From Paramecium tetraurelia (lineage: Eukaryota): a DNA stretch of 64,000 bases. The stretch spans positions 186,001 through 250,000 of the forward strand of contig CT867999.1 in the NCBI GenBank assembly GCA_000165425.1, given 5' to 3'. A program made the position numbers and the translations under genes. Every line of letters starts with the position of its first letter. Within the stretch, counting starts at the first letter, position 1. Shown here piece after piece: positions 20,330 to 25,825 of the stretch. Below the pieces are notes generated by a model. That model saw only the letters and a program-made list of their open reading frames with translations. It made no database searches and was not told where the DNA came from.

Positions 20330-21046
20330 ATGCAAAAATAGATTTTAAGGCCTTAATTCTTATACTCTCTAGTTTACCAAAAGGCAACTCCTACTAGAAC
20401 AATTGGTGGAAAACTACCAGTCTATGTTACACCTGCACCTTATGGTTTGGTTGTAATCTAGGAATGGTGGGGTCTCAATTCATCCATTTGTAAAACAGCA
20501 GATATCATGAGTTCTTATGGATTCAAGTGTGTTGTGCCTGATTTGTATAGAGGGAAGATAGCTAAGGATACAGAAGAGGCAGGACATCTTCTTTCTGGAT
20601 TAGATTGGAAATAAGCTTTAATTGATATAGAAGAATCAGCACGTTATTTGAAGGAAGAATTGCATTGCTAAAAAGTTGGAATTTTGGGATTTTGTATGGG
20701 AGGAGCACTTAGCATAGCAGCGATTACAACATCTAAAATAATATCTGCTGCTGCACCATTTTATGGTGTATGTGACTTAAGTGCATTCAAATTATCAAAT
20801 GCAAATGGACCAATTTTAGCTTAATTTGGTTAAAATGATGAGATGGTAGGTTTCTCATCAGTTTAAGACGCTAAAAGATTAGAATAAACTGCATAATCGT
20901 AAGGTAATAAGAGTTTGTAAGTGAAAATATGGCCAGGAGTAGGACATGCATTTTGTAATCAAGATAGACCAGAAGTATATAACTAAGTAGTAGCTAAGTA
21001 AGCCCTAGATTTGGCAGCAAAGTTCTTACATGAAAATTTAAAATGA
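20330..21046 (+). CDS. Dienelactone hydrolase family alpha/beta hydrolase, intronless
   Basis: VIQEWWGLN, VPDLYRG, nucleophile motif VGILGFCMGG, PFYG, and GHAF His motif. Confidence 0.93.
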
Positions 21047-21068: not shown

Positions 21069-22916
21069 TCAGTCAGAGACAATGAATTACTCATATTCTT
21101 CGATTAATTAATGTACAAAATCTAATACTTTATAATCCTCCAAAGCAACTTTAAAGCTTTATTGAAAATCATAATATTAAGAGTAAGTGATTTTGAATCT
21201 TTTATGGATTATTTGTAAATCCTACTTCTTAAAGAATCTAACTCCGTAAAGTAACAAATTAAGTTTACACAAAATACTTTGACTCATGTTGGCCTCTTCA
21301 GTCTCATATACTTAATTAAGATTTCTTTGAGCAAACTCGTACTCTAGAATCGAATGAGCCTTTGAAATCAAGTAATCCTCTCCAAGATTGACTATTAATT
21401 GACCTCTCGCTTCCCCAAGAATGATAGGCCTAATTTCATCCCAATCTTCTTTGAAATCCTCTATAATCAAGTTGTCATTGGTTAATAGTTTGACTTCTTG
21501 GATGGCTTTTTGTTTGAGTTTCTCAAAAATCTTTTCATTTATTATGGCTTTTTTGCAATGTATTAAATGTAGATCATCTCTAGTAATAGCTTTTATGTTA
21601 TATCTGAAGAAATAATGGAAAATATTGCAACAGTGAGCAGTGAATCTTTGCTTTCCTCTACGAATTATTAATTCCGATAGCATGGTATCTTACTAGCAGC
21701 TGTTCACGAAGTTGTCAATGAACTAATGAAAGCCAATTTAGTTCACATAATATTAGAGATCCTTCTTGTTGATTATAGCATATTTGTAGATATCCATTCT
21801 GCGTAATAATAATCTGATATTTTTCCAAGGAATATTTGATTCTTAAAGAGTTAAAGAAAGATAGTATTTAAAATTTGTAAGCTAAACATTTGTTAATGCA
21901 TATTTAACATGTCTCTCTCTTAAAGTTTCACAAGAATAGTTTGGCGAATCTAAATGATAAATGAGCTGAAAGAACAATCTTGCAAATTTGATTTCTTAAG
22001 TAGCCACATCAATTTTTTCAAAATAAGGAGCAAGTGTGACATCAGACAAGATTTTTTTATACATGGATTTGGTTATTGCTTAGATACCTTATTCTCCTCC
22101 ATAAATCTCATATTCCAAGACTTCATTCAGTATATAAGGTCTCATGTTTTCAATTTTTTCACAGGAATTGAACATTTTCTCTGTTGGTATATTTAAAAGC
22201 ATAAACCTATTCAGAAAGTGATACTTAAACTTAAAAAAATGAGCATGAGTCAACTGCATGCCATTATGAATCACTCTTAAACGAGCTAAATCCAAAAACA
22301 TTTATTAATCATAAGCTGTTGCCAACAAATTCCTAAAAATTTGTTTAACTCCATTTTGATTTTTATTAGGAAATTTTGGAGCGAGCATAGTATCTTTACG
22401 AGTAATATCAAAATATATTTGATCTACCTCAAAATTGAGAAGATCTTCAGTGCCTTGAGGTTTAGGAGCCACCTTACGCTTCACTGATAACTTTTGAAGA
22501 TAACTTTTAATTATTTAATCTTAAGATTTTATAGGCACCAATTATTACTATGAGTTCTAATGACTAGCTTTTCGAATAACATCATTAAATATTTATGAAT
22601 TTCGAATTATATAAGAAGGTTTTTTTTTCTAACTCCATTATTTAATAGTAAAGAGTGGCAATTCTGACCTACTTGTTTTGGAGCATGATAATTCTTTGAA
22701 TCTTAAATGTGTTTAAGGATCTCCATTGGATGCTCGTCTGTTGCTGAGAGCATAACTCAAGTTTTATTCGATTTAAAGTCCCTGTATTTATGATTCAAAG
22801 AGAGTCCTTTGGGATTCGTGATAATTATTTTGGGATTTCTTTTTGCTCGTTCTGTATTATTTAACTGCATAATTTAATACGAAATCCTTAAATGATTATT
22901 AAGAGTCAGATATCAT
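21069..22916 (-). CDS. Multi-domain truncated hemoglobin, four tandem group I-like globin domains (copy 1; 615 aa, intronless)
   Basis: 1848 nt open frame. Domain 2 EIYGGEQGIQAITKSMYKKILSDVTLAPYFEKIDVATQEIKFARLF...LRERHVKYALT is a typical 2/2 globin. Proximal His motifs LRVIH, LRERH, LHLIH, LQIIH are spaced ~115-120 aa apart. Confidence 0.85.
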
Positions 22917-22933
22917 AAATAATAAAATTTATA

Positions 22934-24989
22934 TCAATCGAAAACTATATGTTTTTTGTAGTCATCTATTACATCAAGAATAAAGTATAATTTTTGTGGT
23001 TCATCTTGCATAACTATTTTCATAGCCTAAATAAATTGGTAGATATAATTAAGTACTTATTAAAATTCGAAATATGGTTACTCTCTTATTCTTAATCGTT
23101 TATGAAGAACCTCAATATCTGTTCTTTTGTAAAAATGGAGTCCATATAGAATTAAATTGAGTTTGCATCTTAAGTTTTAACCCACAGATGATTCATTATC
23201 CTTAGTTAATTTTACTATTTACTTCAAATACTTTGTATAATAAAGGTCGCTGCATGATCTCATTTTCAAGTTTAGATGCTATTCTATTGATCACATGTTA
23301 TCCTCCAAGCTATTTTATTATAGTCTTCCTTGGTCTATTCAAAAGAATAGGAGTTATTTCTTCCCAATCCTCTTCAAAATCGCTTAATAAAATGGGATCA
23401 TTAGTTACTTTGCTTACTGCTTGCATGGCTTTCTCTTTGAATTTCTTAAAGACCTTTTCTGAAATTATAGTTTTATTCTTATGAATCGATTCAATATCAC
23501 TATCTGTAATTGACTTGACATTATCTCTAAAAAAATAATGGAAAACATTTTCACAATGAGCAGTAAATCTCTACTTCCCCCTTTTTTAAACTAAATCAAA
23601 GAGGATTGGTTCGCTTGTACATAAACGAACAAAACTATCAATGAACTCCCGATAACCTCCAGGAGAACTGAATATGCTTTCCTACAATGATTATTTGTTT
23701 AATATGGCAAATTTGTAAGTATCCATTTTCCTTAACAACATTCTAATATGCTTAAATCTGATTCCTAATTTTTACAGCGTGGTGGATAAATAAAACTTAA
23801 AATTGGCCAATTAAACATGTGTAAGCTTGTATTTTACATGTCTTTCTCTCAAGACTTCTAGGGTATAATTTGGTGATTCAGTATGATCAATCAATTGGGC
23901 AAATAATTTCGCAAACTTAACTGCTTGTTCCTCTAATTCTATTGCCTTAAAGTATGGACTTAATGTGTAATCTTTAAAGATCTTTTCATAAGTATTTTTA
24001 GCAATTTCATTAATTCCGAATTCTCCCCCGAATATCTCAAAATCACTCTTCTCATTTAATATTAATGGTTTAAAATTTTCTAATTTATAGCATCCTTTAA
24101 ACAACAACTCAACTGGAGTCTCCATATCCATAAATTGGTTTATAAAGAAATACTTAAATCTAATAAATTACTCCTTCTTTATAAACAAAGGTGCATGTAT
24201 ACTTCTCATCCGAAATGGATCAAGCAAGATTTCCTATGTGTACCCAATTCCTAAGATGCTCTTATAAATATCCTTCAAGTACTTTAATGATTTTCCCTAG
24301 AATTTGACCTTTAACTATCGATCTTGAATAATACGTGAATAAAGAGTCTCTGAATGTTAATCAAGTAGTTCATTACAACCATATTGTTTTATCTAAGTTT
24401 TTATGATTCTCTAAAATTTAGTCTCAAAGAATTTGCTTATAATTTCAGTCTAGGTCATTGGTTATTACTTTAACTCTCTATGATGGGAATGTATTTTAGG
24501 CTTTCTTAGTTGTTCAAGTTGATCTTGTACATTTCTTAATCCAGCAAAACTTGATACCTTAGTTTTTGTTGAGATGGGAGTGAATTTAAAATGAACAGGA
24601 GAATTAGGGAGTATGATGTCTTGTGAATCCCCTATCAACGGTAGTTGATAGGCAGTCTTTGCAGGAGATTGTTATTGGCTTCGAAAATTCTTGGCCTTAT
24701 TTACAAAGTCCTTCAGTGCTATTTGACATTAAGATGAATGCTTAATGACTAACTCATTTTATTAGTCAGATCGTAAAAGTGTATTTAACTATTTTTCCCA
24801 CCTTTCCTTTTTAGAGTTAATAGGAGAGCCTTATAATGGTGACAGTCGTCTTGTATTTTAGAATCTCATATCATCCTTGGTTTGCTACATTTGAATGAAG
24901 TCTCTAAAAGCCATGCTTTTACTATCTTATTTCATATGCTCAGTGGGAAATTTTATTGGGCATCTCGGTGAAGTTGAAAGATTATGCAT
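22934..24989 (-). CDS. Multi-domain truncated hemoglobin, four tandem globin domains (copy 2; 667 aa, two introns)
   Basis: Introns 23027-23056 and 23201-23222 restore the frame. Domain 2 SDFEIFGGEFGINEIAKNTYEKIFKDYTLSPYFKAIELEEQAVKF; His motifs MRSIH, LRERH, IESIH, IEVLH; colinear with copy 1. Confidence 0.87.
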
Positions 24990-25825
24990 TATTATTTAAA
25001 AATAATAAATATTGCTTATATAAAACTAACTTTATAAAAATAATTGTCTCAAATTTCTGACAGCCCTCACATTTGTTGAATTAAATTCAGTCATAAAGTA
25101 AATTTGGCTCTTTTAAAGATTATTTCTATTAGTTTTACATTTTAGTCTAAGAACTGATTATCCATCATAATATTTTAATTATAAAGTCTAAAATTAACAA
25201 ATTAAAAACAAAATTTTAACAATTTAACTTATCAATATATATATTAGTCGATTAAATTCTTATTTAACAGCTACGTCAATAAATTTAGCATATGTTAAAT
25301 AACACTATCTAAAAGTAATTCATAAATTATTTAAATAAGTTTTTTTAATTCTAAATTATAAAAACTGCAAGCTTATGGTAACTACTCAAAATCAAACTGG
25401 AAAATAGTATTTCTCGTTTTATAAATTTGTAACAAGATGAAACTATTCCTAATATTTAATTAAATTTTATTATTGTTTTAAGTTAATCTTAAATAAAGTT
25501 TCTTTATTATAGAAGTATTTATTTATAATTATGACTCTATATTCTTATACTATATAATCAAGTAATAAAGATATTCTCAATTAATATCATATCGTATTAA
25601 GTAAATAAACCATTAAATAAATAAATTATATTCTAGATTATGTCTTTGAAATTCGATTGATAATAATGTTATGTATACTTTTACGATAAATCATCATCTT
25701 AAAATCCAATCAACAGACTTTGAATTTAAATTAAAAATAAAGAAAAATTAGATTTGATTACTCAAACTTTGGTATTTATTAATTAATATTTTTCTAAGAT
25801 ATTTTTAATAATAAATTTAAATTAT

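What the first reader, a model, noticed from the sequence alone, without database searches (positions are those of the whole stretch)
21069..24989. Tandem pair of genes, each encoding four concatenated truncated-hemoglobin (2/2 globin) domains
Seen: under code 6 both genes give a ~160-200 aa low-complexity N-terminus, then four ~115-120 aa units that each carry an (L/M/I)xxxH motif. Unit 2 has the group I truncated-Hb signature: GG after the short A helix, Tyr B10, Phe CD1, Gln E7, Lys E10, His F8. Established: the classic ciliate hemoglobins are single-domain group I trHbs of ~116-120 aa. Inference: these are four-heme globin polyproteins, perhaps O2/NO sensors, NO dioxygenases or an intramolecular heme relay, with the disordered N-terminus as an anchor or regulator. 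The genes are 17 nt apart and are fragmented in the standard-code ORF track. I cannot tell from the sequence whether they have been described.
Basis: partly seen in the sequence, partly recalled or inferred. Interest (0 to 1): 0.88.

Follow-up and report, generated by a model that had tools for sequence, protein, structure and literature searches.

The report
Tandem four-domain truncated-globin genes in Paramecium
Two neighbouring Paramecium genes each encode a floppy head followed by four truncated-haemoglobin domains in a row, an architecture already noted by computer surveys in other protists but never studied at the bench.

Summary
The window is Paramecium tetraurelia macronuclear DNA: both proteins are exact matches to its records. 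Gene 1 (21069-22916, minus strand) gives 615 aa. Gene 2 (22934-24989, minus strand) gives 667 aa after two tiny introns that RNA reads support.

Each protein has an N-terminus with no Pfam domain; in gene 1 it is modelled as disordered. Four units of about 115 aa follow. Pfam recognises only unit 2. Family profiles of all four units match a reference set of bona fide truncated-globin units at 98.8-99.9% probability, against at most 2.3% in controls. Predicted structures place units 2, 3 and 4 with solved globins. Unit 1 has sequence evidence only. The proximal His F8 is kept in 54 of 54 aligned units. Unit 3 always has His at E10, the position that gives six-coordinate haems elsewhere.

Haem binding, stoichiometry and function are untested. 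Multi-unit 2/2 globins are already in print: a four-domain Chlamydomonas THB5, and ciliate multi-unit T1 globins found in silico. This is therefore a new, divergent member of a known kind, of moderate interest.

The parts
21069..22916 (-). Gene 1, 615 aa, no intron, stop TGA at 21069-21071
   Evidence: ORF under code 6. The translation equals stored protein P0107 exactly. Stranded RNA reads in the sense of the minus strand, at low depth.
22455..22916 (-). Gene 1 N-terminal region, residues 1-154, predicted disordered
   Evidence: AF2 pLDDT below 50 for residues 17-152. No Pfam family. hhalign against the globin reference gives 0.1%.
22122..22454 (-). Gene 1 unit 1 (residues 155-265): Tyr168 B10, Phe182 CD1, Val190 E7, Ile193 E10, Phe194 E11, His217 F8
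   Evidence: hhalign 99.6% over 112 columns against the reference globin units. HMM i-E 1.1e-10 at iteration 2. Confident helices in AF2. No structural search row covers it.
21768..22121 (-). Gene 1 unit 2 (residues 266-383): canonical group I truncated globin with GG 273-274, Tyr286 B10, Phe299 CD1, Gln307 E7, Lys310 E10, His336 F8
   Evidence: Pfam PF01152 at 22.5 bits, cut-off 21. PDB sequence match to 1dlw, E 7.9e-7. VIA Z 15.9, rmsd 1.9 over 118 residues to 1dly.
21411..21767 (-). Gene 1 unit 3 (residues 384-502): Val404 B10, His428 E10, Cys429 E11, His453 F8
   Evidence: hhalign 98.8% over 116 columns. VIA Z 11.0, rmsd 2.6 over 117 residues to the syNOS globin domain. Z 10-11.8 to many globins. 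His at E10 in 13 of 13 family units.
21072..21410 (-). Gene 1 unit 4 (residues 503-615): Glu525 at B10, Tyr537 CD1, His571 F8
   Evidence: hhalign 99.0% over 111 columns. AF2 of the unit alone, pLDDT 85.9. In an unbiased search of 48,161 chains the 13 matches with Z of 8 or more are all truncated haemoglobins, best 6bme_B at Z 11.8, rmsd 2.7, 110 aligned.
22917..22933 (-). 17-nt spacer between the stop of gene 2 and the start of gene 1
   Evidence: Read directly from the sequence.
22934..24989 (-). Gene 2, 667 aa; exons 24989-23223, 23200-23057 and 23026-22934 (stop TGA at 22934-22936)
   Evidence: Splice model. Exon 1 is 100% identical to the 667-aa P0132. Stranded RNA reads, depth about 1-12.
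23201..23222 (-). Gene 2 intron 1, 22 nt, GT...AG, shifts the frame
   Evidence: 5 loose read ends at 23222 in X22 continue with the sequence of the next exon. Sequence.
23027..23056 (-). Gene 2 intron 2, 30 nt, GT...AG, in frame
   Evidence: 3 loose read ends at 23056 in X22 continue with the next exon. Removing it gives 667 aa, collinear without gaps with P0008 and P0100-P0102.
24051..24380 (-). Gene 2 unit 1 (His265 F8)
   Evidence: HMM i-E 3.2e-7 at iteration 2. Key residues Tyr B10 and Phe CD1.
23697..24050 (-). Gene 2 unit 2 (His384 F8), canonical group I truncated globin
   Evidence: Pfam PF01152 at 25.2 bits. Residues Y/F/Q/K/H at B10/CD1/E7/E10/F8.
23334..23696 (-). Gene 2 unit 3 (His478 E10, His503 F8)
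22937..23333 (-). Gene 2 unit 4 (His622 F8), interrupted by both introns
   Evidence: HMM i-E 6e-5 at iteration 2, run on the 677-aa form that still held intron 2..

Best explanation
Shown:
- These are two expressed, tandemly duplicated paralogues of P. tetraurelia, 44% identical over 520 aligned positions.
- Each encodes an N-terminus of about 150-200 aa with no Pfam domain (modelled as disordered in gene 1), followed by four consecutive group-I-type 2/2 (truncated) globin domains.
- They belong to a Paramecium family of four-unit globins. Within it each unit position forms its own lineage and has its own distal-pocket signature.
- The gene 1/gene 2 pairing recurs across aurelia species and duplicated chromosome copies.

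Inferred:
- Because the proximal His F8 is kept in every unit, each domain most likely still binds a b-type haem, making a four-haem single-chain protein with division of labour.
- Unit 2 (Tyr B10, Gln E7, Lys E10), like the classic ciliate haemoglobins, would bind O2 and react with NO.
- Unit 1 (Tyr B10, apolar E7/E11) would be a second ligand site.
- Unit 3, with its invariant His at E10, would be an endogenously six-coordinate bis-His haem suited to electron transfer.
- Unit 4, with an apolar/acidic pocket, has an unclear role.
- The favoured job is O2/NO redox chemistry (NO dioxygenase-like scavenging), with haem re-reduction helped inside the chain.

My odds: four globin domains about 0.9; at least two units binding haem about 0.65; all four about 0.45; the NO/O2 redox role about 0.35.
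For: Homology of every unit:
- Family profiles of U1-U4 were compared with 36 reference units from 32 proteins. All 32 proteins pass the Pfam PF01152 cut-off.
- hhalign gave 99.6, 99.9, 98.8 and 99.0% over 111-116 columns.
- Controls: reversed alignments 0.4-2.3%, column-shuffled 0.1-2.3% (5 shuffles per unit), N-terminus 0.1%.
- An HMM built only from unit-2-like and bona fide units found gene 1 U1 at i-E 1.1e-10, gene 2 U1 at 3.2e-7 and gene 2 U4 at 6e-5.

Fold:
- AF2 of gene 1 gave pLDDT 72.5 and pTM 0.69, confident over residues 155-615.
- U2 matches 1dly at Z 15.9; U3 matches the syNOS globin at Z 11.0, and many other globins at Z 10-11.8.
- U4 folded alone: the 13 matches with Z of 8 or more, out of 48,161 chains, are all truncated haemoglobins.

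Haem ligand and pocket:
- His at the F8 column in 54 of 54 aligned units, and His at E10 of U3 in 13 of 13.
- E10 ligation gives six-coordinate haems that facilitate electron transfer (passages of PMC11904497; Lys E10 in THB1/2/4, PMC7082302).

Expression and gene structure:
- Stranded RNA reads cover both genes, and loose read ends support both introns.

Conservation:
- 13 of 14 family proteins show four units.
- Unit positions form clades among the Paramecium members, support 0.63-0.91.
- 15 further gene 1/gene 2 pairs share a contig and have accession numbers 1-2 apart.
Against: - No haem binding was measured, and no coordinates were available to inspect the pockets.
- Pfam sees only U2, and for full-length gene 1 even that falls just under the cut-off (20.8 against 21 bits).
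- U1, U3 and U4 gave no globin family at E up to 10.
- Unit-against-unit hhalign with 8 close sequences was weak, at most 7.8%.
- Gene 1 U4 reached only i-E 0.79, and the U3 units 0.03-0.06 or nothing, at the unbiased HMM iteration.
- Two of the 36 reference units (P0011, P0019) are fragments of this family's own unit 2.
- Foldseek gave no match at E of 0.001 or better for either model, although truncated globins top both lists.
- U1 appears in no structural search row.
- Features that support haem binding in truncated globins are missing from several units: the EF Gly-Gly in all four, a basic E10 in U1 and U4, Tyr B10 in U3 and U4, and Phe E14 throughout.
- RNA depth is low, about 0-4 for gene 1.
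Confidence: 0.6

Rival explanations
1. Only unit 2 is a working haem globin. Units 1, 3 and 4 are degenerate globin-fold modules that serve as scaffold, spacer or protein-binding surface, and His F8 is kept for structural reasons.
For: - Pfam detects only U2.
- The gene 1/gene 2 identity is highest in U2 at 59%, against 37% in U1 and 39% in U4.
- Canonical pocket residues are lost in U3 and U4, and a basic E10 is lost in U1 and U4.
- Non-haem globin-fold families exist; stressosome and phycobilisome chains appear among the structural matches.
Against: - The F8 His is present in 54 of 54 units, including deep paralogues that are 14-25% identical to gene 1.
- His571 is one of only 4 invariant columns in the 15-sequence family alignment.
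- U3 is the second best conserved unit at 51% and has a conserved potential sixth ligand at E10.
Confidence: 0.2
2. The protein is a haem-based gas or redox sensor or regulator. Ligand binding to one or more units changes the packing of the four-domain body, and the disordered N-terminus passes this on or anchors it to a partner or structure.
For: - The long N-terminus is conserved in presence, has no Pfam domain and is modelled as disordered in gene 1.
- Units have differing pockets.
- pTM of 0.69 hints at a defined domain arrangement.
- Relatives fuse multi-unit globins to other modules, for example ankyrin repeats in P0031.
Against: - No recognisable output domain.
- The N-terminus is only 27% identical between the two genes.
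- Nothing here tests signalling.
Confidence: 0.12
3. The two ORFs are really one gene for an eight-unit protein, either by removal of the stop region or by read-through. The 17-nt spacer would then be an artefact of annotation.
For: - A 17-nt spacer is too short for ordinary promoter and terminator signals.
- For another tandem pair of the family (P0138/P0152 in P. tetraurelia), the P. pentaurelia and P. primaurelia records give single proteins of 1307 and 1320 aa.
Against: - Gene 2 ends in TGA, which code 6 reads as a stop (that it is the organism's only stop codon is established knowledge, not tested here).
- No joint across the spacer was seen in the reads, although depth is low.
- The two genes are annotated separately in the 15 other pairs.
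Confidence: 0.04

Closest known systems
Single-domain group I truncated haemoglobins of ciliates (Paramecium caudatum Hb, PDB 1DLW/1UVY; Tetrahymena pyriformis trHb, 3AQ5)
   Same: - Unit 2 has the same fold: Z 14.8 to 1dlw and 14.4 to 1uvy_A, with rmsd 2.2-2.3; Z 15.0 to 3aq5_A.
- 1dlw is its best PDB sequence match, E 7.9e-7.
- It has the same Tyr B10, Phe CD1, Gln E7, Lys E10 and His F8.
- Unit 4 alone also matches 1uvy, at Z 11.2.
   Different: - The known proteins are 116-121 aa single domains.
- Here four units are fused behind an N-terminus with no Pfam domain (modelled as disordered in gene 1).
- Three of the four units have non-canonical distal pockets and escape Pfam.
Multi-unit T (2/2) globins found in silico (Hade et al. 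2017, IUBMB Life 69:479, as cited in PMC7475203) and Chlamydomonas reinhardtii THB5 with 'four consecutive 2/2Hb domains' (PMC7082302)
   Same: - Several 2/2 globin units sit in one polypeptide.
[quoted passage not shown]
- My search found 21 of 30 scanned relatives with 3-12 Pfam globin stretches, from Lacrimia, Astrephomene, Perkinsus and unnamed sources.
   Different: - In those relatives every unit is recognised by Pfam. In the Paramecium family only unit 2 is.
- Each Paramecium position has a fixed, distinct signature.
- I could not read Hade et al. 2017, so I cannot say whether these Paramecium proteins are in their list.
- I found no experimental work on any multi-unit form in the papers I could search.
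Endogenously six-coordinate group I truncated globins (cyanobacterial GlbN with a distal His; Chlamydomonas THB1/2/4 with Lys E10)
   Same: - Unit 3 has an invariant His at the E10 column, 13 of 13.
- E10 is the position whose side chain ligates the iron in those proteins (passages of PMC11904497 and PMC7082302).
   Different: - Coordination in unit 3 is inferred from alignment only.
- Unit 3 lacks Tyr B10 and, in genes 1 and 2, Phe CD1.
- It has a conserved Cys at E11 in 10 of 13 units.
- That the GlbN ligand is His46 at E10 is my recollection. The passages I read say only 'distal histidine' and 'position E10 may coordinate'.

Membership tests
Group I (N/T1) truncated haemoglobin domain, Pfam PF01152 Bac_globin | Sequence match to the family model at or above the curated cut-off of 21 bits | tested here: met
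   Met for unit 2 only: 22.5 bits in gene 1 and 25.2 bits in gene 2. Units 1, 3 and 4 gave no hit as single sequences. As family profiles they match a reference set of Pfam-positive units at 98.8-99.6%, against controls of at most 2.3%.
Group I (N/T1) truncated haemoglobin domain, Pfam PF01152 Bac_globin | 2-on-2 alpha-helical globin fold | tested here: met
   On predicted models:
- U2: Z 15.9, rmsd 1.9, 118 aligned to 1dly.
- U4: the top 13 of 48,161 chains are all truncated haemoglobins, best Z 11.8.
- U3: globin fold at Z 10-11.8, but the matches are mostly 3/3 globins that borrow the last helix of U2, so the 2/2 subtype is not resolved.
- U1: modelled with confident helices but covered by no search row, so untested.
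Group I (N/T1) truncated haemoglobin domain, Pfam PF01152 Bac_globin | Strictly conserved proximal His F8 (hallmark used in PMC4720485) | tested here: met
   His at the F8 column in all four units of both genes, and in 54 of 54 aligned family units.
Group I (N/T1) truncated haemoglobin domain, Pfam PF01152 Bac_globin | Gly-Gly motifs at the AB corner and after helix E (PMC4720485) | tested here: not met
   The AB Gly-Gly is present only in unit 2 (G273-G274). Units 1 and 4 keep a single Gly, and unit 3 has a single Gly (G395) that the alignment places off the motif. The EF Gly-Gly is absent from all four units. The family still places unit 2 by every other test.
Group I (N/T1) truncated haemoglobin domain, Pfam PF01152 Bac_globin | Distal-pocket pattern: Tyr B10, Phe CD1, basic E10 | tested here: inconclusive
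   - U2: Tyr, Phe, Lys, so met.
- U1: Tyr and Phe, but Ile/Val at E10.
- U3: Val/Ile at B10, Ile/Val/Met at CD1, His at E10.
- U4: Glu at B10 (from hhalign), Tyr/Phe at CD1, Ser/Asn at E10.
Alignment in helix E of U4 is uncertain.
Group I (N/T1) truncated haemoglobin domain, Pfam PF01152 Bac_globin | Binds haem b | not testable with these tools
   This needs expression and spectroscopy, or at least a co-folding model with haem.
Multi-unit T globins (tandem 2/2 globin repeats in one chain) | Two or more consecutive 2/2 globin units in a single polypeptide | tested here: met
   Four units per protein in 13 of 14 family members by the iterated HMM. Supported.

The most novel reading that the evidence does not exclude
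The four fused units form a compact single-chain 'pseudo-tetramer' with built-in division of labour. Ligand-binding haems in units 2 and 1 are wired to a bis-His (E10) electron-relay haem in unit 3. The protein would then act as a self-contained multi-haem NO/O2 redox enzyme. The tandem gene 1/gene 2 products, kept as a pair through the whole-genome duplications, would work together.
Probability: 0.2. Interest if true: 0.65.

Novelty: new member of a known kind. Interest (0 to 1): 0.4.

Why it matters
Truncated globins are usually studied as single domains of about 120 aa. One large survey kept only sequences under 160 aa (PMC4720485, Methods passage), so multi-unit forms fell outside it.

Paramecium carries a sizeable family of four-unit forms. 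My calls named ten P. tetraurelia genes with a record accession, and counting gene 1 of the window (listed without an accession) makes eleven. Databases call them uncharacterised, with one Pfam domain or none.

If all four units bind haem, and unit 3 is six-coordinate, this would be a natural single-chain multi-haem globin in a genetically tractable ciliate. It could be used to ask what tandem globin units are for: cooperativity, internal electron transfer, or sensing.

If only unit 2 binds haem, the family shows how globin folds decay into scaffolds. Either way the sequence-level finding is incremental, because the architecture is known in silico.

Tried and rejected
- Pfam on single units: no globin hit for U1, U3 or U4, even at E up to 10.
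- hhalign unit against unit with only 8 close sequences: at most 7.8% probability. It became informative only with the wider family alignment and an outside reference.
- Foldseek against PDB: no match at E of 0.001 or better for the full model or for U4 alone, although truncated haemoglobins head both lists.
- VIA lists for the full model are filled by U2 and U3. No row covers U1 or U4.
- No whole genome is held for the window, and there are no earlier notes on this place.
- Papers not held: Hade et al. 2017 and Pesce et al. 2000.
- Paper searches found nothing on the Paramecium four-unit proteins or on THB5 function. One search was badly worded and returned unrelated papers. One search returned none.
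- One eight-unit gene: no joint across the spacer in the reads, but the depth there is too low to exclude it.
- The upstream in-frame ATG at 25094 was rejected as the start. The annotated protein starts at 24989, and RNA depth is at most 0.58 in bin 24958-25111 and zero beyond.
- The non-Paramecium four-unit proteins P0040, P0080 and P0061 did not group unit by unit with the Paramecium ones, except P0061 U3. A single origin of the four-unit layout beyond Paramecium is therefore not shown.
- The gene-2-like P0008 group (one gene each in four species) had no gene-1-like partner on the same contig in my lists.
Full report
**What is there**

Under the ciliate code the minus strand carries an uninterrupted 615-codon ORF at 21069..22916. 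A second gene sits directly upstream, and its reading frame is broken near 23200-23260.
- The first gene's translation is identical to a stored protein, P0107.
- The first exon of the second gene (589 aa) is 100% identical to a 667-aa Paramecium tetraurelia protein, P0132, GSPATT00029572001. That protein lies on a contig of the same length as the one holding P0107.
- The window is therefore P. tetraurelia macronuclear DNA, about 25-36% G+C.
- Gene 1 has 34 in-frame TAA/TAG codons and gene 2 has 31. Both end in TGA. The spacer between them is 17 nt.

**Gene models and expression**

Gene 2 needs two small GT...AG introns.
- Intron 1 is 23201-23222, 22 nt, and shifts the frame.
- Intron 2 is 23027-23056, 30 nt, and is in frame.
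- In three stranded oligo-dT RNA runs, reads cover both genes in the sense of the minus strand. The convergent neighbour is read on the opposite strand.
- Depth is low: roughly 1-12 for gene 2 and 0-4 for gene 1.
- Loose read ends at 23222 (5 reads) and 23056 (3 reads) in run X22 continue with the sequence of the next exon.
- The spliced product is 667 aa. It aligns without gaps to P0008 and P0100-P0102 at 88.6-90.4% identity.
Reading through the second one adds ten spurious residues to unit 4.
- Gene 1 and gene 2 are 44% identical over 520 aligned positions.

**Are there four globin units?**

Single-sequence tests see only unit 2.
- Pfam PF01152 scores 22.5 and 25.2 bits on unit 2 of the two genes, against a cut-off of 21. 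Units 1, 3 and 4 give nothing.
- Unit-against-unit profile comparison with eight close sequences was also weak.

A profile search of 1.84 billion representatives gave 93 hits.
- These included more distant four-unit relatives.
- They also included many proteins with 3-12 Pfam-recognised globin stretches, 21 of the 30 I scanned.

I then sliced a 15-sequence family alignment into the four units and compared each with a reference alignment of 36 globin units from 32 proteins.
- All 32 reference proteins pass the Pfam cut-off.
- hhalign gave 99.6, 99.9, 98.8 and 99.0% probability over 111-116 columns.
- Reversed alignments gave 0.4-2.3%. Column-shuffled alignments gave 0.1-2.3%. The N-terminal region gave 0.1%.
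- Caveat: two reference units (P0011, P0019) are fragments of this family's own unit 2. They contain no unit 1, 3 or 4 sequence.

An independent route used an HMM built only from unit-2-like and bona fide units.
- It found gene 1 U1 at i-E 1.1e-10, gene 2 U1 at 3.2e-7 and gene 2 U4 at 6e-5.
- Gene 1 U4 reached only 0.79, and unit 3 was not significant at that stage.

**Structure**

AF2 on gene 1 with the family alignment gave mean pLDDT 72.5 and pTM 0.69.
- Residues 17-152 fall below 50 and residues 155-615 are confident.
- The helix pattern repeats four times.

Structural searches placed three of the four units.
- Unit 2 superposes on truncated haemoglobins: 1dly at Z 15.9, rmsd 1.9 over 118 residues, and P. 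caudatum 1dlw at Z 14.8.
- Unit 3 matches the globin domain of syNOS (Z 11.0, rmsd 2.6, 117 residues) and many other globins at Z 10-11.8.
- Unit 4 folded alone (pLDDT 85.9) was compared with 48,161 chains. All 13 matches with Z of 8 or more are truncated haemoglobins of groups I-III, headed by Chlamydomonas THB4 (Z 11.8, rmsd 2.7, 110 residues) and P. caudatum Hb (Z 11.2).
- Foldseek E-values never reached 0.001.
- Unit 1 is covered by no structural row, so its fold rests on sequence profiles and the helix pattern.

**Haem-pocket residues**

Unit 2 was aligned to P. caudatum Hb. The position labels were checked against the B10/E7/E10/E11/E14 spacing quoted for THB11 (PMC7082302). All units were then aligned to one HMM.

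| Unit (gene 1) | B10 | CD1 | E7 | E10 | E11 | F8 |
|---|---|---|---|---|---|---|
| U1 | Tyr168 | Phe182 | Val190 | Ile193 | Phe194 | His217 |
| U2 | Tyr286 | Phe299 | Gln307 | Lys310 | Phe311 | His336 |
| U3 | Val404 | Ile | Phe | His428 | Cys429 | His453 |
| U4 | Glu525 | Tyr537 | Met | Ser | Ile | His571 |

- Glu525 at B10 of U4 comes from hhalign.
- Gln307 is encoded by a TAA codon.
- His occupies the F8 column in 54 of 54 units from 14 proteins.
- His occupies E10 of unit 3 in 13 of 13 units.
- His571 is one of only four invariant columns in the family alignment.
- According to passages I read, the E10 residue can ligate the iron and give a six-coordinate haem that facilitates electron transfer: a distal His in cyanobacterial GlbN and Lys in THB1 (PMC11904497; PMC7082302).
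- The EF Gly-Gly motif, Phe E14 and, in U1 and U4, a basic E10 are missing.

**Family and gene order**

- Thirteen of 14 family proteins show four units.
- Among the Paramecium members each unit position forms its own clade, with support 0.63-0.91. The four-unit layout therefore predates the paralogues.
- Three non-Paramecium members (unnamed records) do not sort by position.
- The gene 1/gene 2 pairing recurs. 15 further pairs in five aurelia species share a contig length and have accession numbers 1-2 apart, for example GSPATT00034165001/34166001 and 36907001/36908001. Adjacency is inferred from numbering and was not read from DNA.
- One gene-2-like group (P0008) had no partner in my lists.
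- Another tandem pair (P0138/P0152) is annotated as single proteins of 1307 and 1320 aa in two species.

**Surroundings**

- Downstream and convergent lies a dienelactone-hydrolase family gene at 20330-21046 (Pfam E 4e-40). It is far better covered by RNA reads.
- The N-termini of both globin genes have no Pfam domain and are only 27% identical to each other.

**What it most likely does**

Shown: four globin-type domains per chain, the proximal His conserved throughout, and expression.

Inferred: each unit binds haem b.
- Unit 2, and perhaps unit 1, binds O2/NO like the classic ciliate globins.
- Unit 3 is a bis-His six-coordinate haem that could pass electrons.
- The whole would carry out O2/NO redox chemistry.

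I give about 0.9 to the four-globin architecture, about 0.65 to at least two haem-binding units, about 0.45 to four, and about 0.35 to the NO/O2 redox role. The rivals are a single working globin with three scaffold domains, a sensor, or one eight-unit gene. They are listed with their tests.

**Comparison with what is known, and novelty**

- The review PMC7475203 (passages read) states that multi-unit T globins made of several 2/2 repeats were identified in silico, and that T1 chimeric and multi-unit sequences occur in ciliates. It cites Hade et al. 2017, which is not held.
- The trHb survey PMC4720485 kept only sequences under 160 aa (Methods passage).
- My searches found no paper on the Paramecium four-unit proteins and no experimental work on any multi-unit form. 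Subscription papers and the supplements of the unread papers may hold them.

The architecture is a known kind. These genes are new, unusually divergent members with position-specific pockets. Interest is moderate.

Noticed in passing
window 22917-22933: Only 17 nt separate the TGA of gene 2 from the ATG of gene 1 on the same strand. Gene 1's promoter and 5' end, and gene 2's 3' end, must overlap the neighbouring coding sequence, or the two genes share a transcript. Read depth there was too low to tell.
   Followed up: partly
P0150 and P0153 (records of P. pentaurelia and P. primaurelia), against P0138/P0152 of P. tetraurelia: Another tandem pair of four-unit globin genes (GSPATT00027722001/27723001, 656 and 585 aa) is annotated in two sister species as single proteins of 1307 and 1320 aa. 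This is either a gene-model merge or a real eight-unit form.
   Followed up: no
window 21996-21998: The distal Gln E7 of unit 2 in gene 1 is encoded by TAA, a reassigned stop codon. A standard-code reading breaks the gene exactly at a key pocket residue.
   Followed up: yes
window 20330-21046 (+): A convergent dienelactone-hydrolase family gene (Pfam PF01738, E 4e-40) ends 22 nt from the stop of gene 1. It has several-fold higher RNA depth than the globin genes.
   Followed up: partly
window 24990-25094 (-): An in-frame ATG 35 codons upstream of the annotated start of gene 2 extends the ORF. RNA depth is near zero there, and the annotated protein starts at 24989.
   Followed up: partly
P0013, P0016, P0067, P0031: Very long multi-unit truncated globins occur in other protists: 12 Pfam stretches in a Lacrimia lanifica transcript (1882 aa), 10 in Perkinsus olseni, and 5 in the green alga Astrephomene. 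An unnamed protein joins three globin units to ankyrin repeats.
   Followed up: no
P0132 / P0008 names: UniRef labels the gene 2 proteins 'HECT domain-containing protein'. Pfam finds no HECT domain in P0008, the gene 2 paralogue, scanned whole, nor in the separately scanned pieces of the window's gene 2. P0132 itself was not scanned. The name looks inherited from a cluster representative.
   Followed up: partly
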